A stretch of 64,000 nucleotides of DNA from a virus, in IMG/VR virus record IMGVR_UViG_3300033146_001382, positions 1 to 64,000 of that record. One strand, written 5' to 3'. The position numbers and the translations under genes were made by a program. A model generated the notes under the pieces. The model was not told the DNA's origin. It made no database searches and saw only the letters and a list, made by a program, of their open reading frames with translations. This document shows positions 1-38,825 of the stretch, piece after piece (within the stretch, counting starts at the first letter, position 1; each line of letters opens with the position of its first letter).

Positions 1-170
1 TGTGGGTGGCCACCACGAGGTTGGTGGTGACCATATAACTAGTAAGATTAATTTGAAAGTTAGAAGCCAACAAGGGTGAACACTGACTATATTCCTCTCT
101 AGGCGAGGGTCGCCCTCTGCATCAGGGACAGAGTGACCAAGTACACCATTAACAGGGTGTACGCCTGTTA

Positions 171-653: not shown

Positions 654-674
654 AATATCCCCTTGTTAAGAGTT

Positions 675-701
675 GCTACCAAGAACCCTGGTAGTTAGGT
701 A
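675..701 (-). repeat. Leader hairpin repeat R2, copy 1
   Basis: gctaccaagaaccctggtagtt(a/g)ggta recurs at 1166-1192; ctacca/tggtag stem. Confidence 0.85.
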
Positions 702-707
702 TCTCTA

Positions 708-926
708 TTAATTTGTATGTAGCTTAATATGACACTCCCTACATACAATTAATAAGTTTTCTCTAGTCGTTTCCCCGCCTTGTGAGACGGGGATTTTATG
801 ATGTGGGTCTGCTGTCCTCATGTCTAAACTAGACCCACACTCTTTACAAGTGTAATTGGCCTGTTTCAAAGCCTTTTTCTTCATAGACTTTGGAAACCTA
901 TTACACTTGGCTCTATTTTTGGCCAT
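708..926 (-). CDS. Small HNH endonuclease
   Basis: CxxC...DPHHKIPVSQGG...N...CRECH motif; RBS aggggag. Confidence 0.85.
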   Translation of the reverse strand: MAKNRAKCNRFPKSMKKKALKQANYTCKECGSSLDMRTADPHHKIPVSQGGETTRENLLIVCRECHIKLHTN

Positions 927-1165
927 AAATCTCTCCCTATAAGAGGTAATTGCCTACCCATCACTTATTTCTCATGCGGGCTTTGGACCGCCAATGGCTA
1001 GTTTAGTAGAGGGGCCACCGAAGGGGCTCCCTAAGTTAAAAATCTATCTCATCCAAAAACGGTTCAGCTGTCTTTGGATACTCATACGTGCCAAAGCAAA
1101 TGGCAGGTATTGGGTTGCCGCATTCTAAACAAATGTTAGAAATAAGACATCTCCAATAGAAGATA

Positions 1166-1192
1166 GCTACCAAGAACCCTGGTAGTTGGGTA
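1166..1192 (-). repeat. Leader hairpin repeat R2, copy 2
   Basis: 26/27 identity to 675-701. Confidence 0.85.
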
Positions 1193-1196
1193 CTAC

Positions 1197-1234
1197 ACCA
1201 CATCAACCCTCAAACCTAGGTTTGAAGGCTCATG
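1197..1234 (-). repeat. Hairpin element R3, copy 1
   Basis: accacatcaaccctcaa...ggctcatg flanks shared with 2130-2167; 9-bp stem kept. Confidence 0.75.
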
Positions 1235-1270
1235 TGATGGCAGGTGTTCGAAGGCACACCTGCCGTAAGC

Positions 1271-1435
1271 CTATAGTCCAGGAATCCATGCCTGAACTAA
1301 TACCTTAGGAAACTCCCAAAACATAGTCCTGATGAATTCCCTGTGATGTGGAGACAGCAGGCAACATATAACCTGTATCTCCACAACAAGAGTGATCCCT
1401 AATATGATTAGGGAATTTCTAATCCATTTTTTCAT
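1271..1435 (-). CDS. Small hydrophobic protein, 54 aa (MKKWIRNSLIILGITLVVEIQ...), absent from ORF track
   Basis: Manual translation; starts at the AGGAG-N6-ATG end of repeat R1. Confidence 0.6.
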   Translation of the reverse strand: MKKWIRNSLIILGITLVVEIQVICCLLSPHHREFIRTMFWEFPKVLVQAWIPGL

Positions 1436-1490
1436 AATGATCTCCTATGTATCATTATAAGGTTATGGCACAGTACCACGCCCTGTGCCT
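1432..1490 (-). repeat. 59-bp gene-leader repeat R1, copy 1 (hairpin + AACCTTATAAT + RBS + ATG)
   Basis: Exact match to 2062-2120. Confidence 0.95.
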
Positions 1491-1504
1491 TGGCGATTAC
1501 TTGC

Positions 1505-2065
1505 TTAATACTTTATGTGGGCTACGCCTTCCATAGAATCGTATCCCTTGTCAGTCAGGACCTTTTTCTGAAGACGATTAGCTTCATCCTCAGAGAGGCC
1601 ACCAGCACGGCACTGCTCGATAAGCTTCTTATAAGCAGCCTCACCACGCTTCCATACACTACTATCATCAGTGAAGTGATAGAACCAATCAAACTTGTCC
1701 ATAACAGCAATGATAGCTTCTAGTACAGCCTCGTCATTGTCGTCTCCCTGCTTAACCACTTGGACGGCAGCGAAGTAATGATTACTACCATCAGCATGAG
1801 GGTAACCAACTCCAAACTTATGGTTGTACTTGAGGCCAGAGGCTCTGAGTATAGCCTTGGTATTCTCATGTGCAGTCTGGCCGAAGTCCGATATGTATTT
1901 AGCCATTAGCCTAGCCATTTCCCTTAGGTTACCTGCTACTGCCAGTTTCTGCATCTTGTACTGAAGTACACACTGTTCGAGTGTTGCACCAGTAGGTAAG
2001 CCAGAGATGATTGCGGTGATAGCCAGGTTTGATGTAAATACTGCTACGATGTCTTTGAATGTCAT
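1505..2065 (-). CDS. Hypothetical protein (186 aa)
   Basis: ORF starting at the R1 RBS/ATG. Confidence 0.8.
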   Translation of the reverse strand: MTFKDIVAVFTSNLAITAIISGLPTGATLEQCVLQYKMQKLAVAGNLREMARLMAKYISDFGQTAHENTKAILRASGLKYNHKFGVGYPHADGSNHYFAAVQVVKQGDDNDEAVLEAIIAVMDKFDWFYHFTDDSSVWKRGEAAYKKLIEQCRAGGLSEDEANRLQKKVLTDKGYDSMEGVAHIKY

Positions 2066-19538: not shown

Positions 19539-20891
19539 ATGGTTGAGATTTTAGAATGGGATGGTAAATTGGAAGATAAAGTAGTTATAGACACTAATTT
19601 ACTTCTAGATGATTCAAAGATTTTATTTAAATTAACAAAAAAGTATAGACAAATTGTAATACCAATTACTGTACTACAAGAATTAGATAAACATAAGTTT
19701 AAACAAGGTACTTCTTATAGCGCTAGACAAGCAATAAGAGCACTTATAGATTTTAAATCAAAGTATAGAGATAGAATATTATTTGATATTTCTAGTATTG
19801 ATTTAAATAAGTTAGATACTAATGATCTAAAAATAATTAAATGTGCTAAAGATAGTAATTCAACGCTTGCAACTAAAGATATGTCTATGGACATAATAGC
19901 AGAAGCACTTGAAGTAAAGACTAAATTATATGATGTAGTATTAAATAATATTTTTAATCCTTATGTGTACATAGAACAGTATAAACTATTTAATGTTAAT
20001 ACTGAGGGCGTATTTGGATATGGTAGATATTTTGAAGGTGCAGACTACAATAAAGTATATAATTTATTTAATACTGCTAGTGATAGACCACTTATAAGAG
20101 ATTCATGGTTTTTTGTAATTATAAATACACCAACTAGTAACCCTACAGTCTATGCACATAATCCGATTAGAAAGTTATTTGTAAAAATAGACGATGAGCC
20201 TACATACAGAAGTATAAAAGGTAAAAAAGGAGAACATATTAAAGCTAGGGATATTTATCAAACATGCGCAATATATGCACTAAAAGAAGCACAACATGTG
20301 TTGATAACTGGTAAATGGGGCTCTGGTAAAACACTATTAGCTACAGCACAATCACTAGCTAATGAGGATAAAAAAGTATTTGTAACTAGAGCACCTATAG
20401 GCTTGAATTCTAAGTATGATATAGGATTTATTCCTGGTGATAGAGTTGAAAAAATGCAAGATTGGTTAGGTGGTTTTATGAGTGCCTTATATTTTCTTTA
20501 TGGCAATACTAAAGGCCAGGTAGGGGAAGGCAATAAAGGTTATGATTATGTCAAAGAAGTTCTTTTCAGAGAAAAATTAGAACCTATTGCAATTAACTCT
20601 ATACAAGGGCTTTCATTACTAGATCATGATACTTTAATAGTAGATGAAGTACAACTCATCACTGTGGACTATATTAGTATGATTTTGAGCCGTCCGTCAG
20701 AATCTGGTAGGTTAGTACTCTTAGGTGACTTAGGTCAAACATATGACGTAGTAAAGCCCTCAGAATCGGGTTTATTAAAACTATTAAGGATACTACCACA
20801 TAGGTCTATAGCATACGTAGATTTACAAAATTCGTATAGAAGTGATATTTTAGAAGTTGCAGAGCTTTTACAGGATAAAACAATAGGATAA
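19539..20891 (+). CDS. phoH: PIN-domain PhoH-family ATPase
   Basis: VIDTNLLL PIN; GKWGSGKT; IVDEVQL; LLGDLGQ; YRS. Confidence 0.9.
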   Translation: MVEILEWDGKLEDKVVIDTNLLLDDSKILFKLTKKYRQIVIPITVLQELDKHKFKQGTSYSARQAIRALIDFKSKYRDRILFDISSIDLNKLDTNDLKIIKCAKDSNSTLATKDMSMDIIAEALEVKTKLYDVVLNNIFNPYVYIEQYKLFNVNTEGVFGYGRYFEGADYNKVYNLFNTASDRPLIRDSWFFVIINTPTSNPTVYAHNPIRKLFVKIDDEPTYRSIKGKKGEHIKARDIYQTCAIYALKEAQHVLITGKWGSGKTLLATAQSLANEDKKVFVTRAPIGLNSKYDIGFIPGDRVEKMQDWLGGFMSALYFLYGNTKGQVGEGNKGYDYVKEVLFREKLEPIAINSIQGLSLLDHDTLIVDEVQLITVDYISMILSRPSESGRLVLLGDLGQTYDVVKPSESGLLKLLRILPHRSIAYVDLQNSYRSDILEVAELLQDKTIG

Positions 20892-20907
20892 AAATAGGAT
20901 AAAAAAA

Positions 20908-21480
20908 ATGAACACAAAACCATTAGTTATAAACCTATTAGGTGGTCCAGGTAATTTAAAATCAGCCACGGCCGCTGGGATATTCTCGTTATTAAAATTA
21001 CATTATATAAATTGTGAATTGGTTACAGAGTTTCCTAAAGATTTGACATGGGAAGAAAATTGGAAAGTCTTAGCTATGCAAGGACTAGTATTCTCAGAAC
21101 AAAATAGACGATTAGCCAGAATAACTCACGATGTAGATGTTATTGTTACTGATACATCTTTATTATTTTCACTACTTTATAACAAAGATACTTTAACTAC
21201 TGAATTTAGTGAATATATAATGAGTGTGTATAATTCTTACAATAATTTAAATGTTAATTTAGTTAGAAATAAACATATCATGTATGAAGAGTTTGGTAGA
21301 AAAGAATCTAAAAACGAATCTATGCAGATAGATGTTAATATAAAGTCAATACTAAATAAATATAAACTAGACTATATAGAATTTAATACTGGAATAAATA
21401 CTATTAATGAAATAGTAGCACTAATTCTTAATAAATTTAGTAAAAAAATTAAATACACACTAAAGGAAGTGCAGACATAA
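20908..21480 (+). CDS. NadR/AAA_28-type P-loop kinase/ATPase
   Basis: INLLGGPGNLKS...EFPKDLTWE...VIVTDTSLL. Confidence 0.8.
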   Translation: MNTKPLVINLLGGPGNLKSATAAGIFSLLKLHYINCELVTEFPKDLTWEENWKVLAMQGLVFSEQNRRLARITHDVDVIVTDTSLLFSLLYNKDTLTTEFSEYIMSVYNSYNNLNVNLVRNKHIMYEEFGRKESKNESMQIDVNIKSILNKYKLDYIEFNTGINTINEIVALILNKFSKKIKYTLKEVQT

Positions 21481-22473: not shown

Positions 22474-23040
22474 ATGGATGTAAAAAATAATAGATTTCAC
22501 ATGGATTTTGACAGACATGTCATAGATTTAACTAAAAAGAACTCAGCAGAAAGAATAGCCTCCAATAAAATTTATAATTGTAGTGCTTATAACTTATTTA
22601 GAACACTAATAGTTAATGTAGTAAGAGGGGGATGGCAAGATCATAACGGTTACCCATTAAAAAGTAAATTCTTTGAAAAAGGTAAATTAGCTTGTAGTAT
22701 ATCTACAAGAAAATTAGCTAGAATGGTAGGCCAGAGCGACCAACTGATTCAAAAAAATATAAAACTACTTAAACAAGTGAAATGGTTGGAAACTTCTAAT
22801 CAGTATATGGCAAAAAAGCAAACTACTTTTGTACTAGGATATTGGATAGAGTATTCGGACACAAAAGGAAAAATTAAGTACAAAGAAACTTGGTATAAAG
22901 ACGAAGTTCTAGATAATGTACGGCTCCTTAATTATAGTAAAATTGAAAAATCAATAGAAGAAGAAGTAGCTATTTTTGAAGAAGAAACATTAGATTTTGA
23001 CGATATTTACTTTAATAATTGCTCAAATTATTTTAAATAG
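22474..23040 (+). CDS. Winged-HTH DNA-binding protein, replication-initiator-like
   Basis: SISTRKLARMVGQSDQLIQKNIKLLKQVKWLET helix-turn-helix-wing pattern. Confidence 0.55.
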   Translation: MDVKNNRFHMDFDRHVIDLTKKNSAERIASNKIYNCSAYNLFRTLIVNVVRGGWQDHNGYPLKSKFFEKGKLACSISTRKLARMVGQSDQLIQKNIKLLKQVKWLETSNQYMAKKQTTFVLGYWIEYSDTKGKIKYKETWYKDEVLDNVRLLNYSKIEKSIEEEVAIFEEETLDFDDIYFNNCSNYFK

Positions 23041-23083
23041 ACCGTAGTGAAATTCACTACAGTACCGTAGTGAAATTCACTAC
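23041..23083. repeat. Two 20-bp direct repeats (23-bp period), each with a 17-bp palindrome GTAGTGAA-A-TTCACTAC
   Basis: 23041-23060 = 23064-23083; AT-rich tract follows. Confidence 0.9.
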
Positions 23084-23224
23084 ATATAATATATAAGAAT
23101 AAAATACTAGATTAATTATTACTACTAGTGTTAATTAAATAAGTATTAATAATTTTTTTTAAAAAATTATATTTAAAATAAAACTTACGCAAAAAACTAA
23201 AACATAACTAGAAAAAGAAATACT

Positions 23225-23447: not shown

Positions 23448-23475
23448 TTGACAACTGAACTTTGATGCATATATT
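23448..23475 (+). promoter_or_regulatory. Promoter TTGACA-N16-TATATT upstream of clpP
   Basis: Same spacing as other copies. Confidence 0.55.
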
Positions 23476-23523
23476 ATATATAACGGACGAAGAAATATTT
23501 AATTAAAAAAAAAGGAATTACAC

Positions 23524-24105
23524 ATGGTACCATACGTTATTGAAACAGGCAAGAATGACCAAGAAAAAGTATATGATATTTATTCAAGACTTCTTAAAGA
23601 CAGAATTATATTTATTAGAGGGGAATTTAACCCAGAATTAGCAGATGCTGTAACTGCACAATTACTGTTTCTAGAATCAGCTGACCCTGAGAAAGATATT
23701 TTTATGTATATAAACAGTCCTGGTGGCCATATAGACGCTATGTATAGTATTTATGATACTATGAACTACATAAAACCAGATATATGCACACTAGCCTATG
23801 GACAGGCTTGTTCTGCAGGTTCTTTTATTTTAGCTGCTGGTACTAAAGGAAAAAGATTTGCTTTACCTAATTGTGATATTATGATTCATGAGTTATCAGG
23901 CGGAAGCCAGGGTAAGTTTCATGATATGGAGATAAGTTTTAATAGAAGTAAATCTCTGTATGAGAAAATGGCTAAGCATTATGTAGATTTTACAGGACAG
24001 AAATTAGTTAAAATAAAAAAAGATATGAAAAGAGATCACTATATTAGTTCAGAAGATGCAGTAAAATACGGACTTATAGATAAAGTCCAAACTACAAGAG
24101 GCTAG
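23524..24105 (+). CDS. clpP: ClpP protease subunit
   Basis: YDIYSRLLKDRIIF, YINSPGG, ACSAGS, MIHEL, RDHY; triad intact. Confidence 0.97.
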   Translation: MVPYVIETGKNDQEKVYDIYSRLLKDRIIFIRGEFNPELADAVTAQLLFLESADPEKDIFMYINSPGGHIDAMYSIYDTMNYIKPDICTLAYGQACSAGSFILAAGTKGKRFALPNCDIMIHELSGGSQGKFHDMEISFNRSKSLYEKMAKHYVDFTGQKLVKIKKDMKRDHYISSEDAVKYGLIDKVQTTRG

Positions 24106-24106
24106 T

Positions 24107-24712
24107 ATGATTACGTATAATAAAATATATGAAAAAAAAGATGGCAGGAAATTAGTTGCTACAGGTCCTAGGAATTTACAGAATAGACAGCAGTTACAGA
24201 GTACTGAAGTAGTTAGTACTAACTCTGGTATTGTAGAAGGATTAAAAGATGAGTTAAAACATATAGCTTCTACAATTGGTTATACTAAAGATCAGGCTAC
24301 AGAAATGCTTAACACTGCTATTGAAGAAGTATCAATAGACCTTGAAAAAAAATATATTTTTGAAATTGACACTTTGAAAAAATCAGTGTCAGATAGTATT
24401 AATACTATTAATGAGCTTAAAGCTATTAATTCAGCTTTGCAAGTTAGAATTGATAAAAAAGATGACGTAATACTAGAATTAACTTCTAAATTAAGTTCAC
24501 CTACTAGGGAAGTTGTCTATGAGAGCGATTCAAGTAGTACTAGTGATAGACCGTCTATTGATAATATAATAATAGACCCTACAGAAAGAGGTGCAGGTGC
24601 AAAAATGGAATCACACCTTACAGTTAAAGAAGTCAAGTCTATGAAGCCAAAACTTGCTTCAAATATAAATAAATTAAAAGAATTAATGGGTGGATTACCG
24701 AAAATAAAATAG
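24107..24712 (+). CDS. Coiled-coil protein
   Basis: Central heptad stretch; coupled to clpP and actin. Confidence 0.7.
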   Translation: MITYNKIYEKKDGRKLVATGPRNLQNRQQLQSTEVVSTNSGIVEGLKDELKHIASTIGYTKDQATEMLNTAIEEVSIDLEKKYIFEIDTLKKSVSDSINTINELKAINSALQVRIDKKDDVILELTSKLSSPTREVVYESDSSSTSDRPSIDNIIIDPTERGAGAKMESHLTVKEVKSMKPKLASNINKLKELMGGLPKIK

Positions 24713-24721
24713 GAGCAAATT

Positions 24722-25888
24722 ATGACTGATAAAAATTTTAATAAAACTAGTGGGCCACAAGATAGAGTACCTAAGGTTAAGAATAAACATGAAAGTATGG
24801 ATGAATCTACAATTGAGAAGGAAAGACCAAAAATTGAAGACCCCATGCCTATTAAAGAAACTGTTGTAGAGTCAGAGCCTACAGTGGTAACACCAATACA
24901 TAAAGGGCTAGATATAGGAACTAATATGTTAGTAGCTAGCAGTATGGATGCTGATGGAGATACTTCATTTAAAATGCAACGTGATGCATTTTATAGGATA
25001 GAACCAAAGTCGGAAGTAAATAAAAATAGCATTAGAATGTCTCTAGATAAGCGACAAGCTAGTTACATTATTGATAATGATGAGTCATTCATAGTAGTAG
25101 GTGAAGATGCCCTAGAAATAGCCATAGAGAGGCATGATAAGGCGGAAAGACCTCTTCAGCGAGGAGTCATTTCCCCCCAAAATAAAAAATCACTTCCTAT
25201 ATTAAAACATATTGTTAAAGACTTGCTAGGTGAAGCAATTCCAGGCTCAAAGGTGGTATATTCTGTACCTGCTGCCCCAACCGATACTGATTTCGATATT
25301 GTATATCATACTGAAATAATGGGTATGTATTTAAAAGAGTTAGGTTACACATCTGCTCCTATAAATGAAGCCTTTGCTATTGCACTATCTGAATTGTTAG
25401 ATGAGGGGTTGACAGGTGTATGTTTATCTTATGGAGCTGGTATGACTAATGTAGCTGTAATTCATCAGGGTGACCCTTTAGTTGAGTTTAGTTTAACAAG
25501 GTCAGGAGATTACATAGATCAATCAGTAGGTAGAGCTTTAGATATATCACCGAGCCTGGTTCAGCAAGAGAAAGAAGCCGGTATAGATTTAAATTCACCT
25601 AATGGTGAGATAGTAGAGGCTATATCTGTATATTATAGTGCAGTAATTAAGTACACTCTAGAGAACATAGCATATGAATTGAGTAAGCGTAAAAAAGATC
25701 TACCTATTTTTAGAGAAGAAGTACCTTTAATAGTATCTGGTGGATTAACACTAGCTAATGGTTTTGTACCAAAGGTTCAGGATACTATAGTTAATTTAGA
25801 CTTCCCTTTAAAAATTGGTACAGTACGTAGAGCTGCAGAGCCTATGACTACAGTAGCACATGGTTGTCTTTTAGCAGCCCATCTTTAA
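24722..25888 (+). CDS. Actin-like ATPase (MamK/Mad28-like) with disordered N-terminus
   Basis: GLDIGT, INEAFA, SYGAGMTNV, VSGGLT, VAHGCL motifs. Confidence 0.85.
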   Translation: MTDKNFNKTSGPQDRVPKVKNKHESMDESTIEKERPKIEDPMPIKETVVESEPTVVTPIHKGLDIGTNMLVASSMDADGDTSFKMQRDAFYRIEPKSEVNKNSIRMSLDKRQASYIIDNDESFIVVGEDALEIAIERHDKAERPLQRGVISPQNKKSLPILKHIVKDLLGEAIPGSKVVYSVPAAPTDTDFDIVYHTEIMGMYLKELGYTSAPINEAFAIALSELLDEGLTGVCLSYGAGMTNVAVIHQGDPLVEFSLTRSGDYIDQSVGRALDISPSLVQQEKEAGIDLNSPNGEIVEAISVYYSAVIKYTLENIAYELSKRKKDLPIFREEVPLIVSGGLTLANGFVPKVQDTIVNLDFPLKIGTVRRAAEPMTTVAHGCLLAAHL

Positions 25889-25949: not shown

Positions 25950-26354
25950 ATGCCATCATTTGGACGTAGATCTAAGAAAAACTTAAGTACAGCACATTTT
26001 GATTTACAATTACTATTTACTAGAGTTGTAAAATATTTTGATTGTAGTGTACTTTGTGGATTTAGGGATAAAGAATCCCAGAATGAAGCTTTTCATTCTG
26101 GACGATCTAAAGTATTATGGCCAAATAGTAAACATAATAGTAAACCTTCCTACGCTATAGATGTAGCCCCTTATTACACTGGGGAAGGGGTCCCATGGGA
26201 TAATAGAGAACGTTTTATTATTTTTGCTGGCTTTGTATTAGGGCTGGCAGCTAGTATGGATATAGAACTTAGATGGGGCGGAGATTGGGATTCGGATAGA
26301 AAGTTAAATGACCAAAGTTTTTTTGATGGTGTACATTTTGAACTTGTGCACTAG
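25950..26354 (+). CDS. Endolysin, M15 L-Ala-D-Glu peptidase
   Basis: SKHN...AIDVAPY...WGGDW...DGVHFEL. Confidence 0.9.
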   Translation: MPSFGRRSKKNLSTAHFDLQLLFTRVVKYFDCSVLCGFRDKESQNEAFHSGRSKVLWPNSKHNSKPSYAIDVAPYYTGEGVPWDNRERFIIFAGFVLGLAASMDIELRWGGDWDSDRKLNDQSFFDGVHFELVH

Positions 26355-26564: not shown

Positions 26565-26780
26565 ATGAGTCACAGAGTTGAAGGTATTGTAAAATGGTTT
26601 AATGATTCAAGAGGTTATGGGTTTGTGTATGAAAGTGAAGATTTACCTGAAGAATTTTTTGTACACTTTAGTGCTATCGAGATGGATGGTTTTAAGACCC
26701 TTACAGAAGGTCAAAAAGTATCATTTACTTTAGTACAGACAGATAAAGGTGTTCAAGCATCTTCTGTCCAATTACTTTAG
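26565..26780 (+). CDS. csp: Cold-shock protein
   Basis: GIVKWFNDSRGYGF; FVHFSAI; FKTLTEGQKV. Confidence 0.97.
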   Translation: MSHRVEGIVKWFNDSRGYGFVYESEDLPEEFFVHFSAIEMDGFKTLTEGQKVSFTLVQTDKGVQASSVQLL

Positions 26781-27545: not shown

Positions 27546-28124
27546 ATGGCATTAATAGTAATTAGTGGTAAAGCAAGAGCTGGTAAAGACACATTTGGTA
27601 AGATTTTACAAGCTAAATTAAAAGATAATTATTTTATAATGGCGTTTGCTAATGAGTTAAAACGCAGACTTAAGAAGGATTTTGATTTATCTAATAGTCA
27701 GCTATATGGTGACTTAAAGGAAGTACCAGATAAAAGATATAGAAAACCTACAGATGAGGATAAGGTGATTTATTGGACACCAAGAGAAATAATGCAGTTT
27801 ATAGGTACTGATACTTTTAGGGCTATAGATGATAATTTTTGGGTTAATCAGTTATTTAAGTATGTTACTAGAAATAACTTAAAAAATGTAATTATAACTG
27901 ATGGTAGATTTCCTACTGAAATTGAGGCAGTTAAATCCAGGGGAGGAATTCATATCAGGGTAGATAGACCTGATGCACAAGAAATATGTGGCAGCTTACA
28001 TTCTTCTGAAACCTCATTAGATACGTATGATGATATAGATTTCATTGTGAATAATAATAGTACTATTACAGCTTTAGAGGTGATAGCTGAAGAAATTATA
28101 AAGGAGATAGAAAATGGAAAATAA
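27546..28124 (+). CDS. Deoxynucleoside monophosphate kinase
   Basis: ISGKARAGKDT, FANELK, REIMQFIGTD, ITDGRFPTE, HSSE. Confidence 0.92.
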   Translation: MALIVISGKARAGKDTFGKILQAKLKDNYFIMAFANELKRRLKKDFDLSNSQLYGDLKEVPDKRYRKPTDEDKVIYWTPREIMQFIGTDTFRAIDDNFWVNQLFKYVTRNNLKNVIITDGRFPTEIEAVKSRGGIHIRVDRPDAQEICGSLHSSETSLDTYDDIDFIVNNNSTITALEVIAEEIIKEIENGK

Positions 28125-28470
28125 TGAATTTAACGTAGGTATTGAAATTAAAACAATTAAGAACGCTAGTATTAGTAGGTATAGTGATGGGTATAATTAT
28201 GCTAGTATATCATCTAAAGTGGCTGATAATGAGTATATGAGTGTTCATTATGAATGGAAAGGTAATCAGATTCCTGAGTTTGCTCTAAATGTTATGGAGG
28301 TAATGAAATCTTTAGGTAAGGAAGAAGCATCAAAAAATAATGAGTATGCTGCTTCTTTGGAGAGAGCCGGTAATTTTTTTATTGCTCAGGCAGCAAAAAT
28401 GAAAGATGAGGAAGATCCTAAGAATAAAAAGAAGGATACTAAAAAAGATACTAAAAAAGAAAAATGCTAA
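28114..28470 (+). CDS. Hypothetical protein with Lys/Asp tail
   Basis: ORF; AAGGAG RBS. Confidence 0.65.
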   Translation: MENNEFNVGIEIKTIKNASISRYSDGYNYASISSKVADNEYMSVHYEWKGNQIPEFALNVMEVMKSLGKEEASKNNEYAASLERAGNFFIAQAAKMKDEEDPKNKKKDTKKDTKKEKC

Positions 28471-28485
28471 TATAAGGGAGGTAAT

Positions 28486-28731
28486 ATGCCTATTAGTGAA
28501 AGTGAGTTTAGGGAGCCAAAATTTACTAGATACCAAGAGAGGTATCCTATGACTTACAATAAAAATGAGAGGTACACTGCTACTGTAGTTAATCCTAAAA
28601 TTTTACAAGCGAGAGTAAATAGTATTGATGGTAGTGGTTGGAAATTACCAGGGTACAATCCAAATCATAACTCAATATCAGTAGAGCGTGTGAATTTAAC
28701 TACAGAGTCACCTACATTCAGACCCTATTAG
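28486..28731 (+). CDS. Hypothetical protein
   Basis: GGGAGG RBS. Confidence 0.65.
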   Translation: MPISESEFREPKFTRYQERYPMTYNKNERYTATVVNPKILQARVNSIDGSGWKLPGYNPNHNSISVERVNLTTESPTFRPY

Positions 28732-28751
28732 AATTAAAGGAATTACGAATT

Positions 28752-29321
28752 ATGGATATAGAACAAAGATTAGATGTTTTTAAAGATGAATTATCCGCTA
28801 TCTCTGATGGTAGAATAAGGGAATTTACTAAATTGTGTTTAGCTCAAGGGCCAGATTACTTTTTTACAGATTGTCCTGCTAGTACTACTGGTAAATATCA
28901 CCCCTTAAATGAGATTAGTTGGGATGGTACTATTATACATACAAAAAAAGTTTTTAATATTGCATATACTTTAGCACGTGGATTGGGCATAGAGCACAAT
29001 AGAGACCCTATTTTATGTGCTTGTATTATACATGATTTAATAAAGAAAGGTCTAAAAGATTCACAATGGGCTCAGAAAAACCATCCTCAATTAGCTGCTA
29101 GTTTGGTAGATAGGATTCAAAAAGATACTCAATTATTAACACCAGAAGAGTTTGATATAGTTTATAATAGTATCTATTATCACTATGGTCCGTGGACTAC
29201 TAAAGCTGTAGCAAAACCTATGAATGAGTACTCATTAGAGGAATTATGTGTATATGTTAGTGACTATGTAGCGTCTAAAAGATTTGTAGAAGTGCAATAT
29301 AAGGATCTAGAACATGAGTAG
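28752..29321 (+). CDS. HD-domain phosphohydrolase
   Basis: PASTTGKYHP...IHTK...IIHDL...HP...HYG...DY. Confidence 0.85.
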   Translation: MDIEQRLDVFKDELSAISDGRIREFTKLCLAQGPDYFFTDCPASTTGKYHPLNEISWDGTIIHTKKVFNIAYTLARGLGIEHNRDPILCACIIHDLIKKGLKDSQWAQKNHPQLAASLVDRIQKDTQLLTPEEFDIVYNSIYYHYGPWTTKAVAKPMNEYSLEELCVYVSDYVASKRFVEVQYKDLEHE

Positions 29322-30458: not shown

Positions 30459-30986
30459 ATGGGCGGCCAAGGTAGTGGTAAACCAAAAAAACCAGTAATT
30501 AAAAAGTTAATAAAAGAGATAATTCCTACTAGTAAAATTTTCTCAGAAGATGAAGCTCAAATGTATGAAGATTTTATGGCAGCTTATTTAGCTGATTTTG
30601 ACGCTGATGAATTAATCTCTAGCGACATGGATGATATAATGAATTTAGCTCTTAATAAGGTATTATCGTTCAGACTGTTAAAAGAAAGTAAGGATGATAC
30701 TGATAGACAAATTGATATAGCAGCAACTCTTGAAAAATTAGATAAGCGTAATGAAAAAATAAAAGAAAGTTTATCTACAAGACGCCGTGATAGAATAAAC
30801 CCCAACGAATTAAAAGGATTTTCTATTGTTGATCTAGCTGTAGCGTTTGACCAAGAGGCTAAGGCAGCTCAAGCTAAGCGTATGGAAAAATTACGTAAAG
30901 AAGAGAGAGATATTTTAAAGAAAAGAGAATCATACGAAGGGAATAAGAATGACCTAGAAGAAACTAAACAGGATGACGAATATTAA
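30459..30986 (+). CDS. Probable terminase small subunit
   Basis: Helical protein immediately upstream of and overlapping terL. Confidence 0.55.
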   Translation: MGGQGSGKPKKPVIKKLIKEIIPTSKIFSEDEAQMYEDFMAAYLADFDADELISSDMDDIMNLALNKVLSFRLLKESKDDTDRQIDIAATLEKLDKRNEKIKESLSTRRRDRINPNELKGFSIVDLAVAFDQEAKAAQAKRMEKLRKEERDILKKRESYEGNKNDLEETKQDDEY

Positions 30987-33900
30987 TGACTAAGAAGAGG
31001 CACAATTTAGATGATTTAATGGTGCAAGGTAAAGATCTAATTTCATTTTATAGGGCACATCCATGTATTGCTGCTTATGAACTACTTGGAGTTGATTTAG
31101 CCCCCATACAACGGCTTGTATTTAGGGATATGTGGTTTAAGAGTTATGTTATAGCAGTGTGCGGGCGTGGTTATGGAAAAAGTCAGTATACTGGATCACT
31201 CATACATACTAAATTGGATGGGTTAGTATATCTAAATGAGGTACTTCCACCTATTCCAGCCCATTTAAGTGATGGTGAAGAGGAAGTAATTGATTGGGTT
31301 GATGAGATTTATACATCTGAGGGGTTTAGAAATACTAAAAAATTATGCCTGGAAAAAGGTATTACTGGAAAAAAAATCATAACTCAAAACTATTATGAGA
31401 ACAAAGGAAGTACTCATCACCCATTGTTAGTGTTAAATTCTAAGTGTTGTTTTGAATATAAAAGTATGGATGAATTTATTCCAGGGGACAGGATATGTAT
31501 ACAAAGAGGACAAAACACTTTTGGTAATAATTTAATACCTTTAGATGAGGCTTACTTAATAGGTTTATTTATAGGTGGTAGTTTTATAGGTAGAAAAAAT
31601 TATATAAAGATTACCACCACAGATAATTACATTAAAGACTTTTGCATTAATTTCTGTATCAATAATAGTGTATCATATAGGGTTGACAAAGATAGATGTA
31701 CTGAGGATGGCTTTAGTATTTATTTTAAACAATTCGTATCATTTTTTGATAGACACAGTATTGATATGGAGACATCTTACACTAAATCAGTACCATACTC
31801 TGTGCGTACTTCTTCTAGAGCATCTCAAGTAGCATTTTTACAAGGGTACTTCGATACTAATAGTACTGTCTATAGAACTAATGGTAGTGTGTCATGTTAC
31901 TCTGTATCTAAGAAACTGCTAAAAGAAGTTCAAATGATGCTACTAAATTTTGGTATAATAGCTAGACTAAGAAAAAAGAAAACTAAGTCTAAATTTGGTA
32001 AAGTTTACTTATTGGATATGTGCTTAGATGACGCTTTAAAATTTAAAGAATTAATAGGGTTTAGATTAAAAAGAAAACAATTTATATTAAATAATTATTT
32101 TCATAAAAAAGAACTTAACGTAGATAAAACTACTATACCGTATGCATTACAATTGTGTTACTCCATAACACAATACTACCATAATAAATATATCACTTCT
32201 AAAAAACCCCCATTTAACATACGAATTACTAATAAAAAAGAGATAACTTACGATAGGTTAACTAGGTTTTTATCTCAATGTGAAGATATTGAACTTGCTG
32301 GATTTAGTCTTATAGAGGTAAGAGAGGACATTTATAAATTAAAAGAGATACTAAAATATAATTACTATTTTGATACTGTTATTTCAATAGATGACTGGAA
32401 AGGTGATTGTTACGATTTTGAAATGAATATGGAAACTGATGTTGAGCCAAATTATTTTTCTAATGGGTTTATAGCCCATAATACTTTTATGTTAGGTACT
32501 TTAGCAGCATTAAGTTGTTTACTATACCCAGGCTATAGAGTAGGTCTAATTGGCCCAGTCTTTAGACAATCAAAAATGATTTTTTCAGAAGTTGAAAAAT
32601 TGTATGATCAGTCACCCATTCTACGAGAAGCTACTGCTAAAAAACCTACTAGGGGGTCTGATACATGTTATTTAAAATTTAAATCTGTAGCAGGCAAGAC
32701 TCCATCATATATCGAAGGACTTCCTCTAGGAGATGGTAGTAAGATTCGTGGATCTAGATTTTATTTAATACTTATAGATGAGTTGGCACAAATACCAGAT
32801 CAAACACTTGATATGGTTGTACGTCCAATGGGGGCTACAGCCTTAGCACCAATGGAGAGAGTTAGACGTCTAGAAGAGCAAACAAGGCTAATAAAAGCAG
32901 GACTAGCTGTAGAAGAAGACTTCCAAGAAGAGAAAGTAAATAAGATGGTTATGACTTCTTCAGGTTACTATAAGTTTAACCATATGTGGCGAAGAATGAA
33001 GGATCATTGGAAAATGATGGTAGAGTATGAGGCTAAGGGTGAGGAATGCCCTTACTCTGTTTGGCAAGTCCCTTATTGGGATCTACCTGATGGGTTTTTA
33101 GATAAAGCTAATATTGCTGAAGCTAAACGTATAATGTCGTCACATGAGTACAGTATGGAGTATGAAGCCGCTATGGTGTCCGATTCAGAAGGTTTTTTTA
33201 AAGCTTCTTTATTAGAAGAATGTACTATAGACTCTGATTTTACTACTCTTCATAAAGGTGATCCAAATAAGAGTTATGTAATTGGTGTAGACCCTAATCA
33301 AGGGGGATCAGCTAGTTGTGGTGTTATAGTTACTGAAATGGGTAAACCTAACAAAATTGTAAGTGTGTTAGAATTGATGTCAAAGACTACTCAGGGATTG
33401 ACACAAGCAGTGCAATCTTTATGTGATCAGTATAAAGTAATAAGAATATTTATGGATAGAGGTGGTGGAGGTAAAGCCATCATGGATCTACTAGAAGAAG
33501 GTTATGGTAATGTTGAACCTATTATAGATAGAGGTAATCCTGATAATATTCATAAAGATGGTAGACATATTTTAGAAATGGTTAATTTTAATCCTTCTTG
33601 GATTTCTGATGCCAATTTTACTACTAAATCTATGTTTGAAGATAAGAGTTTAAGATTTCCAGAATTAACTGTGAGCGCCAACGATTTAATGGCAAGGACA
33701 TATGAGTCTATAACTACATTAAAATCTCAATTATTAAGTATAGTTGTAACACAAACTTCTACTGGCATCTTACATTTTGATACTCCCACTAAAAGTATGA
33801 ATAAGGATTTATATTCTGCTTTGATACTTGCAGCACATGGTATTAGAATGGTGGAAAGGGAACTAGAAGAAGGGGAAGAACCCATACTACATAATGATAG

Positions 33901-34033
33901 TGGTTTATTTAGAAGTCGTACTGGTAGTCAGGGGTTTAATTACTTAGGTTCGGCTGGTAATATGGGCCTAGGGGCACCACCTATAGGTAGATTTGGTTTG
34001 GGTTCTGCCGTGTTACATAGGAAGAAAAAGTAA
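30986..34033 (+). CDS. terL: Terminase large subunit with intein
   Basis: GRGYGK/T Walker A, ILIDE Walker B, IGVDP nuclease, KDLYSA. Confidence 0.93.
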   Translation: MTKKRHNLDDLMVQGKDLISFYRAHPCIAAYELLGVDLAPIQRLVFRDMWFKSYVIAVCGRGYGKSQYTGSLIHTKLDGLVYLNEVLPPIPAHLSDGEEEVIDWVDEIYTSEGFRNTKKLCLEKGITGKKIITQNYYENKGSTHHPLLVLNSKCCFEYKSMDEFIPGDRICIQRGQNTFGNNLIPLDEAYLIGLFIGGSFIGRKNYIKITTTDNYIKDFCINFCINNSVSYRVDKDRCTEDGFSIYFKQFVSFFDRHSIDMETSYTKSVPYSVRTSSRASQVAFLQGYFDTNSTVYRTNGSVSCYSVSKKLLKEVQMMLLNFGIIARLRKKKTKSKFGKVYLLDMCLDDALKFKELIGFRLKRKQFILNNYFHKKELNVDKTTIPYALQLCYSITQYYHNKYITSKKPPFNIRITNKKEITYDRLTRFLSQCEDIELAGFSLIEVREDIYKLKEILKYNYYFDTVISIDDWKGDCYDFEMNMETDVEPNYFSNGFIAHNTFMLGTLAALSCLLYPGYRVGLIGPVFRQSKMIFSEVEKLYDQSPILREATAKKPTRGSDTCYLKFKSVAGKTPSYIEGLPLGDGSKIRGSRFYLILIDELAQIPDQTLDMVVRPMGATALAPMERVRRLEEQTRLIKAGLAVEEDFQEEKVNKMVMTSSGYYKFNHMWRRMKDHWKMMVEYEAKGEECPYSVWQVPYWDLPDGFLDKANIAEAKRIMSSHEYSMEYEAAMVSDSEGFFKASLLEECTIDSDFTTLHKGDPNKSYVIGVDPNQGGSASCGVIVTEMGKPNKIVSVLELMSKTTQGLTQAVQSLCDQYKVIRIFMDRGGGGKAIMDLLEEGYGNVEPIIDRGNPDNIHKDGRHILEMVNFNPSWISDANFTTKSMFEDKSLRFPELTVSANDLMARTYESITTLKSQLLSIVVTQTSTGILHFDTPTKSMNKDLYSALILAAHGIRMVERELEEGEEPILHNDSGLFRSRTGSQGFNYLGSAGNMGLGAPPIGRFGLGSAVLHRKKK
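31181..32482 (+). mobile_element. Intein (434 aa) with degenerate LAGLIDADG endonuclease
   Basis: Starts Ser66, ends FSNGFIAHN before Thr; removal restores GRGYGKTF. Confidence 0.92.
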
Positions 34034-38102: not shown

Positions 38103-38825
38103 ATGGACGAAGCATTGAAGAAAGATATTGAAAATATGGTAAAGACCATCTTTTCTGATAAAGAAGAAGCTAGTCAGATGCAAAAAACTCAAGACGCTTT
38201 AAATGAGTCAGCAGAGACTATTGAGGCTTTAACTAATACTTTAGAAGAGACTAATACAGAGCTGGCTAATGTCAAAGATTTGGCAAAAGAGGATGCAGCT
38301 ACTAAGGATTCTAAAATTTCCGAACTTACTACTGAACTAGAGGCAGTTCAAACTAAGTTGGGTACAGCAGAGGCAGATTTACTTGTTTCTGAGGAGTCTT
38401 TAATTAACATTAAAAAAGACCGTTTGGCAGAAGCTAGAATGGTAGAATTACAAGAAGCTAAGGTAGCAATGGAGAATAATTTGGAAGTTCAGACTGCGAA
38501 AGTAAGAGAATTTTCAGATGAAGAGTTTGCTACATATAAAGAAGATAGAATTGAGCTTAGAGATTCAGTTAAGAAAGAACTAGAAGCTGCAGCTACTGCT
38601 GCCGCTGCTGAAAATAGTAATACAGGTGAAGAAAATACTCAAGAGAACACTGAAACAGCCTCTACTGAAGAGGGTAACAACACACCACCTGTAGAAGTAG
38701 CTCCTGGCCAAGCTATGGCTGCTGCTATGAATTTTGAAAATAATCCATCAGATGACATGGTGAGTAAGTATGAGGCAATGGGTAAAGCCATGGCCGCTAG
38801 TTTAGCACCTAAGTCCGATAATTAA
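38103..38825 (+). CDS. Capsid scaffolding protein
   Basis: Acidic coiled coil before decoration/capsid genes. Confidence 0.75.
   Translation: MDEALKKDIENMVKTIFSDKEEASQMQKTQDALNESAETIEALTNTLEETNTELANVKDLAKEDAATKDSKISELTTELEAVQTKLGTAEADLLVSEESLINIKKDRLAEARMVELQEAKVAMENNLEVQTAKVREFSDEEFATYKEDRIELRDSVKKELEAAATAAAAENSNTGEENTQENTETASTEEGNNTPPVEVAPGQAMAAAMNFENNPSDDMVSKYEAMGKAMAASLAPKSDN

What the first reader, a model, noticed from the sequence alone, without database searches (positions are those of the whole stretch)
23448..25888. ClpP - coiled-coil - actin operon: candidate phage cytoskeletal or partition system
One promoter drives a catalytically intact ClpP, a coiled-coil protein and a MamK/Mad28-like actin with an acidic disordered N-terminus, 0.4 kb downstream of the palindromic repeats. 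Known: ParMRC uses actin + adaptor + repeats; jumbo phages use PhuZ tubulin spindles. Inference: an actin-based DNA positioning/segregation system with protease-controlled turnover.
Basis: partly seen in the sequence, partly recalled or inferred. Interest (0 to 1): 0.7.

Follow-up and report, generated by a model that had tools for sequence, protein, structure and literature searches.

The report
Jumbo-phage actin, tail-bearing partner, ClpP
An uncultured giant phage carries, behind a host-type promoter, a cell-type ClpP protease, a coiled-coil protein and a volactin-family actin, and the actin with its upstream partner recurs across many phages and one cell-like contig, so these phages probably build their own actin skeleton.

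Summary
A near-consensus sigma70-type promoter (23448-23477) precedes three tightly packed genes. They are a full-length cellular-type ClpP (23524-24105, Ser97/His122/Asp171 kept), a 201-aa coiled-coil protein (24107-24712) and a 388-aa actin-fold ATPase (24722-25888). The actin belongs to Pfam Volactin (205.7 bits). Its model is confident (pLDDT 90.5) and its nearest solved folds are the filament formers MamK, MreB/Mbl and BeeR.

The window opens a 189-kb virus record. At least 570 IMG/VR contigs encode relatives. In a strongly supported clade of 33 distinct actins the order ClpP, coiled coil, actin holds wherever there is enough flank.

The gene just upstream of the actin ends in one short tail motif, K-L-K-x-L with G or K after it, in at least eight unrelated partner architectures. 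These include single-pass membrane anchors, a secreted trypsin-like protease fusion and a coiled coil in a 69% GC cell-like contig. In this phage the actin's disordered N-terminus repeats two linear motifs of the coiled-coil protein.

The ParMRC reading is not supported. The palindromes go with the neighbouring wHTH gene, and the partner shows no DNA-binding domain. ClpP coupling stays open. This scan noted the same module earlier on other genomes.

The parts
23448..23477 (+). Sigma70-type promoter: TTGACA, then 16 nt to TATATT or 18 nt to TATTAT
   Evidence: One search gives 11 of 12 matches. One search gives the chance rate, about 8 sites per strand in 189 kb. One search finds a site with at most 1 mismatch upstream of clpP in 17 of 31 distinct related loci.
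23524..24105 (+). Cellular-type ClpP, 193 aa, with triad Ser97/His122/Asp171 and the N-terminal VPYVIE axial-loop segment
   Evidence: Pfam CLP_protease 235.7 bits. NF001368 252.9 bits against a cut-off of 249; the ClpP-related head-maturation model reaches only 70.5 against 120; end-to-end alignment with solved ClpP 4mxi; triad and N-terminal segment kept in orthologues.
24107..24712 (+). Partner protein, 201 aa: N-terminal linear motif, coiled-coil rod, RP motif and C-terminal tail
   Evidence: Searches find no known family. Searches support the coiled coil. One search gives the invariant columns Y4, K6, P21, R148, P149, D157, P158 and L190. The gene lies just upstream of the actin in the clade, apart from homing-endonuclease inserts.
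24116..24181 (+). N-motif of the partner (aa 4-25: Y-N-K ... G-P-R-N-x-Q)
   Evidence: Searches show it conserved across the clade; the pattern occurs only here and in the actin N-terminus among 462 six-frame ORFs of the 189-kb record.
24545..24580 (+). RP motif of the partner (aa 147-158: D-R-P-S-I-D ... I-D-P)
   Evidence: One search shows R148, P149, D157 and P158 invariant. Searches show related RP or I-D motifs in other partner types.
24653..24694 (+). C-terminal tail (aa 183-196, core N-K-L-K-E-L-M-G-G), the proposed actin-binding peptide
   Evidence: One search shows the tail on the upstream ORF in most of the 81 distinct loci that have one (regex 63, by eye about 77); 44 of 45 and 35 of 36 members of the two big partner clusters, against 2.9% of other ORFs; the cross-family HMM hits fall at C-termini, best E 1e-3.
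24722..24895 (+). Disordered N-terminal extension of the actin (aa 1-58), carrying copies of the partner's N-motif (F6-D14, nt 24737-24763) and RP motif (E34-P41, nt 24821-24844)
   Evidence: mean pLDDT 44-71 for residues 1-50; motif copies in the same order as in the partner, unique in the genome. L002 shares both copies and L004 the first.
24896..25888 (+). Volactin-family actin core (aa 59-388): phosphate-1 G-L-D-I-G-T (62-67), Glu216, phosphate-2 S-Y-G-A-G-M-T-N (236-243), adenosine motif G-G (340-341)
   Evidence: PF25216 205.7 bits over profile positions 2-321 of 321; invariant D64, G66, T67, G238, G240, G340, G341. MamK 5jyg E 3.6e-13; pLDDT 90.5. MamK filament TM 0.73, then MreB/Mbl and BeeR.
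25950..26354 (+). M15-type endolysin, possibly on the same transcript (context; membership in the module is uncertain)
   Evidence: phrog_465 endolysin 4.4e-34; no convincing terminator after the actin gene; different cell-wall-hydrolase-like gene families occupy this slot in relatives.
23041..23084 (.). Two exact 21-nt repeats, each with an 8+8 palindrome (context; assigned to the wHTH gene 22474-23040, not to this operon)
   Evidence: relatives carry palindromes of different sequence right after the orthologous wHTH gene.

Best explanation
This is a phage-encoded actin cytoskeleton module.

The 388-aa Volactin-family ATPase most likely binds ATP and forms filaments. That is inferred from family and fold.

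The gene just upstream encodes its dedicated partner. The partner's short conserved C-terminal tail (an RP or I-D motif, about 25-35 residues, then K-L-K-x-L-x-G/K) most likely docks on the actin. The rest of the partner sets what the filament is attached to.

In this phage clade the partner is a soluble coiled-coil rod with a basic N-terminal docking motif (Y-N-K ... G-P-R-D/N-x-Q). In other phage clades it is a single-pass inner-membrane anchor, sometimes fused to a secreted trypsin-like protease.

In this phage the actin's own disordered N-terminus carries copies of the rod's N-motif and RP motif. Filament subunits and rod would then dock on the same unknown target.

The three genes are read from a host-RNAP promoter, probably early or middle in infection. 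The ClpP is a true cell-type ClpP that needs a host AAA+ unfoldase. It is co-transcribed, and may or may not act on the filament system.

Shown here: gene content, family membership, fold, synteny, the tail motif and the shared motifs. Inferred: polymerisation, tail-actin binding, cargo and timing.
For: Family and fold. Pfam Volactin 205.7 bits over the whole profile. ATPase motifs are invariant across 40 diverse relatives. The AF2 model has pLDDT 90.5 and pTM 0.84. The nearest solved folds are all filament formers: MamK filament 5ljv, Mbl/MreB and the BeeR filament. The sequence profile gives MamK E 3.6e-13, with Glu216 aligned to a Glu of MamK. Volactin itself forms dynamic filaments whose tips touch the membrane in Haloferax volcanii (PMC10869688, read).

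Wide occurrence. 871 representative clusters at E <= 1e-3. At least 570 IMG/VR contigs.

Signs of an important ATP site. 13 of 52 long family members carry inteins. In P0017, 66% identical to this actin, the match to the query breaks at residue 237, beside the phosphate-2 motif.

Partner. A partner gene lies just upstream of the actin in all 33 clade-A loci with flank, apart from homing-endonuclease inserts. In about 45 clade-B loci a roughly 100-aa TM protein holds that place, in three different genomic contexts.

Tail. The motif sits at the C-terminus of 44/45 and 35/36 members of the two big partner clusters. It is also in c144, c278, the three trypsin-TM fusions, L104, L105 and the 403-aa coiled coil of the 69% GC contig L106. 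The background is 2.9% of other ORFs.

Operon. The gaps are 1 and 9 nt with SD motifs, and the promoter is conserved.

Shared motifs. The N-motif and RP motif occur only in the partner and in the actin N-terminus, out of 462 ORFs of the 189-kb record, and in the same order.
Against: No polymerisation, ATPase or binding data exist for any phage member.

The phosphate-2 motif has Ser where MamK has Asp (S-x-G-A-G against D-x-G-A-G); the comparison with other actins is from my own knowledge. This is a family-wide trait, shared by the family whose founder, volactin, polymerises.

The cross-family tail similarity is only at motif level. hhalign aligns 19 columns at probability 3.7%, and HMM E-values run from 1e-3 to above 1. 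A basic amphipathic C-terminal helix could instead be a membrane-targeting or oligomerisation element.

Synteny inside one phage clade is inherited, not independent evidence.

The cargo is unknown.

No cultured phage carries the family. The only matches in GenBank phages are 2 uncultured huge phages, and BFVD holds no close relative.
Confidence: 0.6

Rival explanations
1. Protease-coupled cytoskeleton, a stronger form of the first reader's idea. The phage ClpP, working with a host unfoldase, acts on the filament system. The N-motif shared by the coiled-coil partner and the actin N-terminus would be the degron or docking site, giving timed assembly and disassembly or a filament-bound protease.
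For: ClpP is co-transcribed with, and directly abuts, the partner gene. ClpP adjacency holds throughout clade A, and a ClpP-like gene sits directly before the actin in the distant locus L022. The N-motif is seen only in the clade that has ClpP, and it lies within 30 residues of the N-terminus in both proteins. Other lineages place other proteases at the actin. A trypsin-like c29 gene is near it in 10 of 18 loci of one clade-B subclade, and it is fused to the TM-tail partner in L077, L079 and L087. L104 has Trypsin_2, M42 and M24 peptidases around the actin. The volactin authors raised a link between volactin filaments and proteolysis (PMC10869688).
Against: Two of the three clade-B subclades have no protease within 6 kb. 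The tree does not exclude a single origin of ClpP adjacency. The trypsin-like domains are secreted, so they sit on the other side of the membrane from the actin. HNH genes are tolerated between clpP and the partner gene. Jumbo phages carry ClpP without any actin, read as an anti-host peptidase (PMC7824862). No ClpX is found in the 189-kb record.
Confidence: 0.25
2. ParMRC-like DNA positioning or segregation system. The coiled-coil protein is a centromere-binding adaptor, the twin palindromes at 23041-23084 are the centromere, and the actin pushes or pulls phage DNA.
For: An actin gene next to an adaptor-like gene, with repeats nearby. One cellular family member, P0077, fuses a ParB-type HTH to the actin, so at least some Volactin-family proteins may touch DNA. 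Phage and prophage actins that act on viral DNA are known: AlpC/AlpA of CGP3 (PMC4446434, listed).
Against: The actin's best solved relatives are MamK and MreB, and no ParM appears at E <= 0.01. The partner has no detectable DNA-binding domain and lies upstream, not downstream. The palindromes start at the base after the wHTH gene's stop. In relatives they differ in sequence at that same place while the partner's N-terminus stays conserved. A conserved 71-aa ORF separates the repeats from the operon. Most other phage clades pair the actin with a membrane anchor.
Confidence: 0.1
3. ClpP and the coiled-coil protein are the displaced prohead protease and scaffold of this phage. Their position next to the actin gene would then be synteny without shared function.
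For: Protease followed by a coiled coil mimics the usual protease-scaffold order. No prohead protease is recognisable in the head module (portal 34388, MCP 39541). No S77, S78 or second ClpP-fold gene is found in the 189 kb. The ClpP matches PHROG head-maturation protease families.
Against: The ClpP reaches the cellular ClpP subfamily cut-off, but scores only 70.5 bits against 120 for the ClpP-related head-maturation model. All clade-A orthologues keep the N-terminal segment aligned with the cellular ClpP N-terminus. By my own knowledge this is the axial-loop segment that cellular ClpPs use with an unfoldase, of no obvious use inside a procapsid. The head module has its own scaffold candidate: ORF 38103-38825 is predicted as one 170-residue helix. 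The coiled-coil protein's tail motif travels with the actin in lineages without ClpP and in a cellular contig. The operon lies 10 kb upstream of the head genes, among nucleotide-metabolism genes, behind a host-type promoter.
Confidence: 0.08
4. The actin-fold protein does not polymerise. It would be an ATPase of another kind (chaperone-like, kinase-like, or FtsA/PilM-like membrane adaptor) that works as a monomer or dimer with its partner.
For: The phosphate-2 Asp is replaced by Ser. Weaker PDB matches include FtsA, PilM and EutJ. The best viral matches in BFVD are Hsp70-like proteins and Bacillus phage G Gp506, at 10-16% identity.
Against: All of the top sequence and structure matches in the PDB are filament formers. 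The protein scores far above the Volactin cut-off, and volactin forms dynamic filaments in vivo (PMC10869688). It has no Hsp70 substrate-binding domain and no FtsA-type 1C domain.
Confidence: 0.07

Closest known systems
Volactin (VolA, HVO_2015) of Haloferax volcanii; Pfam PF25216
   Same: Same Pfam family: 205.7 bits against a cut-off of 35, covering the full profile. Volactin forms dynamic filaments that meet the membrane at their tips (PMC10869688). That fits the membrane-anchored partners found in many phage clades.
   Different: Here the gene is viral and the host is bacterial (host-type sigma70 promoter). It has a 58-residue disordered extension carrying partner-like motifs. It is paired with a tail-bearing partner and co-transcribed with ClpP. 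Volactin's role is archaeal cell shape. I did not look at volactin's own gene neighbours.
MamK (magnetosome actin; PDB 5jyg, 5ljv)
   Same: Closest solved structure both by sequence profile (E 3.6e-13) and by fold (TM 0.73 by target). A Glu of MamK aligns with Glu216.
   Different: About 16% identity. NCBIfam MamK scores 18.8 bits against a cut-off of 400. There is no magnetosome context. The phosphate-2 Asp is replaced by Ser.
MreB with RodZ (actin tethered to the envelope by a single-pass membrane protein)
   Same: MreB is among the top fold matches. The clade-B partner topology is a TM segment plus a tail predicted to be cytoplasmic. By my own knowledge of RodZ, that recalls how RodZ links MreB to the envelope.
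   Different: No homology to RodZ was found. This phage's own partner has no TM segment. MreB models score below their cut-offs (27 bits against 27 in Pfam; 24 against 293 in NCBIfam).
ParMRC, Alp7A/Alp7R and AlpC/AlpA (plasmid and prophage actin plus DNA-binding adaptor)
   Same: A mobile-element actin with a small dedicated partner encoded next to it. AlpC of prophage CGP3 supports viral DNA replication (PMC4446434).
   Different: A different actin family: no ParM match at E <= 0.01. The partner lies upstream and has no detectable DNA-binding domain. The nearby repeats belong to another gene.
PhuZ tubulin spindle of nucleus-forming jumbo phages
   Same: A cytoskeletal polymer encoded by a jumbo phage.
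   Different: That is the tubulin fold, not the actin fold. No tubulin is found in this 189-kb record.
Cellular ClpP (for example PDB 4mxi; E. coli ClpP 1tyf)
   Same: End-to-end alignment at E 2.7e-60. The triad and the N-terminal segment are kept. The NF001368 cut-off is met.
   Different: It is phage-borne, with no ClpX in the record. It scores below the TIGR00493 equivalog cut-off (243.8 against 308.6).

Membership tests
Volactin family (Pfam PF25216) | Score above the curated gathering threshold over the whole profile | tested here: met
   205.7 bits against 35, profile positions 2-321 of 321. One search gives the same on the genome. Of 14 control genomes only Haloferax volcanii passes the cut-off.
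Volactin family (Pfam PF25216) | Family-typical nucleotide-binding motifs (G-L-D-x-G-T; N-E; S-x-G-A-G-M-x-N; G-G-T) | tested here: met
   D64, G66, T67, G238, G240, G340 and G341 are invariant. E216, S236, N243 and T342 are at least 90% conserved in 40 diverse relatives.
Volactin family (Pfam PF25216) | Dynamic polymerisation | not testable with these tools
Actin/MreB/MamK-type filament-forming actin fold | Complete actin fold, with filament formers as nearest structural neighbours | tested here: met
   pLDDT 90.5, pTM 0.84. MamK filament 5ljv E 4.7e-16, TM 0.73 by target; then Mbl/MreB, BeeR filament and eukaryotic actin.
ParMRC-type (type II) partition system | ParM-family actin | tested here: not met
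   no ParM among the PDB matches at E <= 0.01; only Volactin, and weakly MreB and MamK.
ParMRC-type (type II) partition system | DNA-binding adaptor encoded downstream of the actin | tested here: not met
   The partner lies upstream. Searches find no DNA-binding family. Partners in other clades are TM proteins.
ParMRC-type (type II) partition system | Centromere repeats bound by the adaptor | tested here: inconclusive
   The repeats exist. They abut the wHTH gene, and in relatives differ in sequence at that same place. Binding cannot be tested with these tools.
Cellular ClpP (MEROPS S14; NCBIfam NF001368) | Score above the curated cut-off; Ser-His-Asp triad | tested here: met
   252.9 bits against 249. 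Ser97, His122 and Asp171 kept here and in 32 of 32 orthologues.
Cellular ClpP (MEROPS S14; NCBIfam NF001368) | Cognate AAA+ unfoldase | tested here: not met
   no ClpX in the 189-kb record, which is about 72% complete. A host unfoldase is assumed.
ClpP-related phage head-maturation protease (NF045542) | Score above the curated cut-off | tested here: not met
   70.5 bits against 120.
MamK family (NCBIfam NF040964) | Score above the curated cut-off | tested here: not met
   18.8 bits against 400. The resemblance is structural only.
AlpC/AlpA of prophage CGP3 | Sequence relationship to AlpC; AlpA-like adaptor | not tested
   No reference sequence was at hand. The system is known only from PMC4446434.

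The most novel reading that the evidence does not exclude
A protease-coupled viral cytoskeleton. The N-motif (Y/F-N-K ... G-P-R/Q-D/E), found near the N-terminus of both the coiled-coil partner and the actin, would be a docking site or degron for the co-transcribed phage ClpP working with a host unfoldase. The phage could then build an actin scaffold and dismantle it on schedule, or carry a protease along it. The recurrent placement of unrelated proteases (ClpP, trypsin-like) beside volactin-type actins in different phage lineages would reflect this coupling.
Probability: 0.15. Interest if true: 0.85.

Novelty: new variant of a known kind. Interest (0 to 1): 0.66.

Why it matters
The only well-studied phage cytoskeleton is the PhuZ tubulin spindle of nucleus-forming jumbo phages. 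Phage actins are known from a few ParM/Alp-type cases.

Here an actin of an archaeal-named family (Volactin) turns out to be common in uncultured large phages: at least 570 IMG/VR contigs. It always comes with a partner that shares one short tail but has interchangeable anchors.

That gives a concrete, testable model of filament, tail-docked adaptor and variable anchor. It also gives short peptides to mutate, and a likely handle on partners of cellular volactin-type actins. A coiled-coil gene ending in the same tail motif sits before the actin gene in a high-GC cell-like contig.

I found no paper describing this module in the held library. No cultured phage carries it, so it is open ground. 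The same module was already noted by this scan on other genomes, so this window is a further instance rather than a first sighting.

Tried and rejected
- Complex prediction (actin 58-388 with partner 140-201) was busy three times and then declared unavailable. The binding claim therefore has no fold-based test.
No survey of cellular genomes was made.
- Single-protein scans with P0023 and P0026 gave one truncated locus and nothing.
- The look-up of sequencing runs: no run was listed, and no RNA holder was listed.
- hhalign of the TM-partner family against the coiled-coil family aligned only 19 C-terminal columns at probability 3.7%. Whole-protein homology is not claimed.
- HMMs of the partners found no partner-actin fusion among 150 family representatives.
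- The Atlas feature search for the partner gave only sub-threshold hits (best 0.86; Mu-like_Pro at 0.78). I treat these as noise.
- Foldseek of the head-module helix protein found nothing in the PDB.
- Searches for S77 and S78 prohead proteases in the record were blank. The S77 control rang nowhere, so that blank is uninformative.
- Consensus sigma70 sites are not enriched genome-wide (12 against about 8 expected). The promoter argument therefore rests on position and conservation, not on abundance.
Full report
**What is there**

The window is the first 64 kb of a 189,441-base IMG/VR virus record, estimated 72% complete. It has about 30% GC, and almost all genes are on the + strand. The head genes lie further on. 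They are a large terminase with an intein at 30986, a portal at 34388 and a major capsid protein at 39541.

At the reported place, a promoter-like site (TTGACA at 23448, 16 nt to TATATT, 11 of 12 matches) precedes three ORFs:
- 23524-24105, 193 aa
- 24107-24712, 201 aa
- 24722-25888, 388 aa

The gaps are 1 nt and 9 nt, and AAGAGG and AGGAG ribosome-binding motifs lie in the junctions. Sites this close to consensus are not enriched in the genome: 12 on the + strand against about 8 in shuffles. One in the 76 nt before clpP is still improbable by chance. A site with at most one mismatch is found upstream of clpP in 17 of 31 distinct related loci. I accept the promoter and the operon. No convincing terminator follows the actin gene, so the transcript may continue into the endolysin gene at 25950.

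**The ClpP**

It is a cell-type ClpP:
- Pfam CLP_protease scores 235.7 bits.
- NCBIfam NF001368 scores 252.9 bits against a cut-off of 249. The ClpP-related head-maturation model reaches only 70.5 bits against 120.
- It aligns end to end with the solved ClpP chain 4mxi, and Ser97, His122 and Asp171 are kept.
- All 32 distinct orthologues keep the triad. The clade's members also keep the N-terminal V/I-P-Y-V-I-E segment. By my own knowledge, cellular ClpPs use this segment with an AAA+ unfoldase.

No ClpX is found in the record, so a host unfoldase is assumed.

**The actin**

- It matches Pfam Volactin (PF25216) at 205.7 bits over the whole profile. MreB and MamK models match only weakly.
- Forty diverse relatives keep the phosphate-1, phosphate-2 and adenosine motifs. 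Phosphate-2 reads S-x-G-A-G, with Ser where MamK has Asp. This holds across the family.
- A profile search of PDB sequences puts MamK first (E 3.6e-13), then BeeR, MreB and FtsA.
- The AlphaFold model is confident (pLDDT 90.5, pTM 0.84), with residues 1-50 disordered.
- Foldseek's best matches are the MamK filament (TM 0.73 by target), Mbl/MreB, the BeeR filament and eukaryotic actin.

Volactin itself forms dynamic filaments whose tips touch the membrane (PMC10869688). Polymerisation of the phage protein is therefore a well-founded inference, but it is not shown.

**How common it is**

- 871 representative clusters match at E <= 1e-3.
- A degenerate-pattern scan of IMG/VR confirmed at least 570 contigs.
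- GenBank phages hold only two matches, both uncultured huge phages of 485 and 595 kb.
- BFVD has no close relative. No cultured model is in sight.
- Thirteen of 52 long family members carry inteins. In P0017 the match to this actin breaks at residue 237, beside phosphate-2. An intein at such a place suggests the ATP site matters.

**Synteny**

I clustered the ORFs of 99 loci and built a quick tree of 89 distinct actins.

Clade A has 33 rows, SH-aLRT support 100, and actins at least 53% identical to the window's. It shows ClpP, coiled-coil partner (198-331 aa), actin, usually a cell-wall hydrolase, and a cold-shock gene. The two rows without ClpP lack upstream flank. The inserts between these genes belong to cluster c38, whose scanned member is an HNH homing endonuclease.

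Clade B has 47 rows at 38-47% identity. It has no ClpP within 6 kb. Instead a protein of about 100 aa sits directly before the actin. It has an N-terminal TM segment, and it occurs in three different replication or nucleotide-metabolism contexts.

Synteny within a clade is inherited. The informative point is what recurs between clades.

**The shared tail**

In the 81 distinct loci with an upstream ORF, that ORF nearly always ends in a tail of one type. The tail has an RP or I-D motif, then about 25-35 residues, then K-L-K/R/A-x-L and a G or K.

A regular expression for the core, applied to the last 25 residues, gave these hits:

| Set | Hits |
|---|---|
| TM partners (cluster c1) | 44 of 45 |
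| Coiled-coil partners (cluster c3) | 35 of 36 |
| Cluster c144 | 2 of 2 |
| Cluster c278 | 1 of 1 |
| Trypsin-TM fusions | 3 of 3 |
| All other ORFs | 2.9% |

The same ending is seen by eye in four more places:
- a TM-plus-coiled-coil partner in L104
- the partner in L105
- more weakly, the huge phage LR745208
- a 403-aa coiled coil before a Volactin gene in the 69% GC, 247-kb cell-like contig L106

Profile statistics across partner families are weak. hhalign aligns 19 columns at probability 3.7%, and HMM E-values run from 1e-3 upward. I therefore claim a shared motif, not whole-protein homology.

The exceptions are loci where a homing endonuclease is inserted, and L022, where a ClpP-like gene directly precedes the actin.

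The simplest reading is that the tail is the actin-docking peptide and the rest of the partner is an exchangeable anchor. An amphipathic membrane-binding helix is an alternative for the tail. It would be redundant in partners that already have a TM segment.

**Motifs shared by partner and actin**

This phage's partner has a conserved N-terminal motif, Y-N-K ... G-P-R-D/N-x-Q (Y4, K6 and P21 invariant). The actin's disordered extension carries F-N-K-T-S-G-P-Q-D at residues 6-14 and E-R-P-K-I-E-D-P at 34-41. The order is the same as the partner's N-motif and RP motif.

Among 462 six-frame ORFs of the whole record, each pattern occurs only in these two proteins. L002 shares both copies and L004 the first. 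Most clade-A actins have no extension at all.

I read this as the actin subunit having acquired the partner's docking peptides. Their target is unknown. The patterns were defined after seeing the two proteins, so genome-wide uniqueness is the control, not a formal probability.

**Is ClpP part of the system?**

For a link:
- co-transcription
- adjacency throughout clade A, and a ClpP-like gene before the actin in L022
- the N-motif seen only in the clade that has ClpP
- other proteases beside the actin elsewhere: trypsin-like c29 near the actin in 10 of 18 loci of one clade-B subclade, fused to the partner in three loci, and Trypsin_2, M42 and M24 peptidases in L104

Against a link:
- two clade-B subclades have no protease nearby
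- the tree does not exclude a single origin of ClpP adjacency
- the trypsin-like domains are secreted, so they lie across the membrane from the actin
- ClpP is known in jumbo phages without actins (PMC7824862)

I put functional coupling at about one in four.

**Rivals**

The ParMRC reading fails on three defining features: the actin family, the position and kind of the adaptor, and the ownership of the repeats. The two 21-nt repeats at 23041-23084 begin at the base after the wHTH gene's stop. Relatives carry palindromes of different sequence at that same place, while the partner's N-terminus stays conserved.

The prohead protease plus scaffold reading cannot be excluded from this record alone, because no other prohead protease was recognised. 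Several points speak against it:
- the cellular character of the ClpP
- a scaffold-like 170-residue helix protein inside the head module
- the partner's tail travelling with the actin in lineages without ClpP

**Novelty**

I found no paper in the held library that describes phage volactin-type actins or this partner. This scan noted the module earlier on other genomes, and two follow-ups reached similar readings.

I re-derived the modular-partner idea independently here. This window adds:
- the cell-like coiled-coil homologue of the arrangement
- the protease-partner fusion
- quantification of the tail motif against background
- the duplicated motifs in the actin N-terminus
- the assignment of the palindromes to the wHTH gene

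It is a new variant of a known kind: a mobile-element actin with a dedicated adaptor.

**Limits**

The host is unknown.

Noticed in passing
window 30986-34033: The large terminase gene carries an intein with a LAGLIDADG homing-endonuclease domain (Pfam LAGLIDADG_3 63.5 bits; Intein_splicing 24.4 bits, below its 35.8-bit cut-off). PHROG terminase matches flank it.
   Followed up: no
family representatives P0017 and 12 others: Inteins (Intein_splicing, LAGLIDADG_3, Hint_2, HNH_3) interrupt 13 of 52 long Volactin-family proteins. In P0017, 66% identical to this actin, the match to the query breaks at residue 237, beside the phosphate-2 ATP-binding motif.
   Followed up: partly
L106:1555-6676 (JGI 3300022554, 247-kb contig, 69% GC): A cell-like contig holds a 403-aa coiled coil ending in an RP motif and A-K-L-K-R-M-Q-G-G. 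It is followed by a 336-aa Volactin, and then by an 891-aa protein that fuses a ParB-type HTH, a Volactin domain and a long Pro/Ala/Glu-rich tail.
   Followed up: partly
L077:4848-5996, also L079 and L087: The actin's upstream partner is a 382-aa fusion: signal peptide, trypsin-like serine protease (T-A-A-H, G-D-S-G-G-G), a TM segment and the shared tail. Unfused homologues of about 250 aa lie within a few genes of the actin in sister phages.
   Followed up: partly
window 25950-26354 and the same slot in L005, L012, L029 and others: The gene right after the actin is an M15-type endolysin here. In relatives the slot holds members of other gene clusters (c41, c56, c61, c76) that look like cell-wall hydrolases, so the slot seems kept while its occupant is replaced. 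Only the window's gene was scanned against PHROGs.
   Followed up: no
window 22474-23220 and orthologous places in L004, L005, L006, L010, L014, L015, L040: The wHTH-like gene is followed at once by palindromes, often in two copies about 23-50 nt apart. Their sequence differs from phage to phage, as expected for the protein's own operator or iterons.
   Followed up: partly
window 38103-38825: A head-module ORF of 240 aa is predicted as a single helix of about 170 residues, then a disordered stretch and a short C-terminal helix. It is a typical scaffolding-protein candidate just upstream of the MCP gene. No prohead protease was recognised anywhere in the record.
   Followed up: partly
L007, L008, L009, L013, L017, L037 (between clpP, partner and actin); L024:2152-2772: HNH homing-endonuclease genes (cluster c38), and in L024 what looks by eye like a GIY-YIG gene, are inserted inside the module in some relatives. 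This separates genes that abut elsewhere.
   Followed up: partly
P0079 (1160 aa): A Volactin domain is fused to Wzz, GNVR and a ParA/BY-kinase-type ATPase, parts of polysaccharide co-polymerases. This may be a real fusion or a gene-calling artefact.
   Followed up: no
window 1-2000: The first 2 kb have 43.5% GC against about 30% elsewhere. They hold the only sizeable minus-strand ORFs at this end of the record.
   Followed up: no
window 19539-21480 and 27546-29321: The operon sits among nucleotide and RNA metabolism genes: a PhoH2-like helicase/PIN protein, a thymidylate-kinase-like protein, a dNMP kinase, an HD-domain protein and a cold-shock protein at 26565-26780.
   Followed up: no
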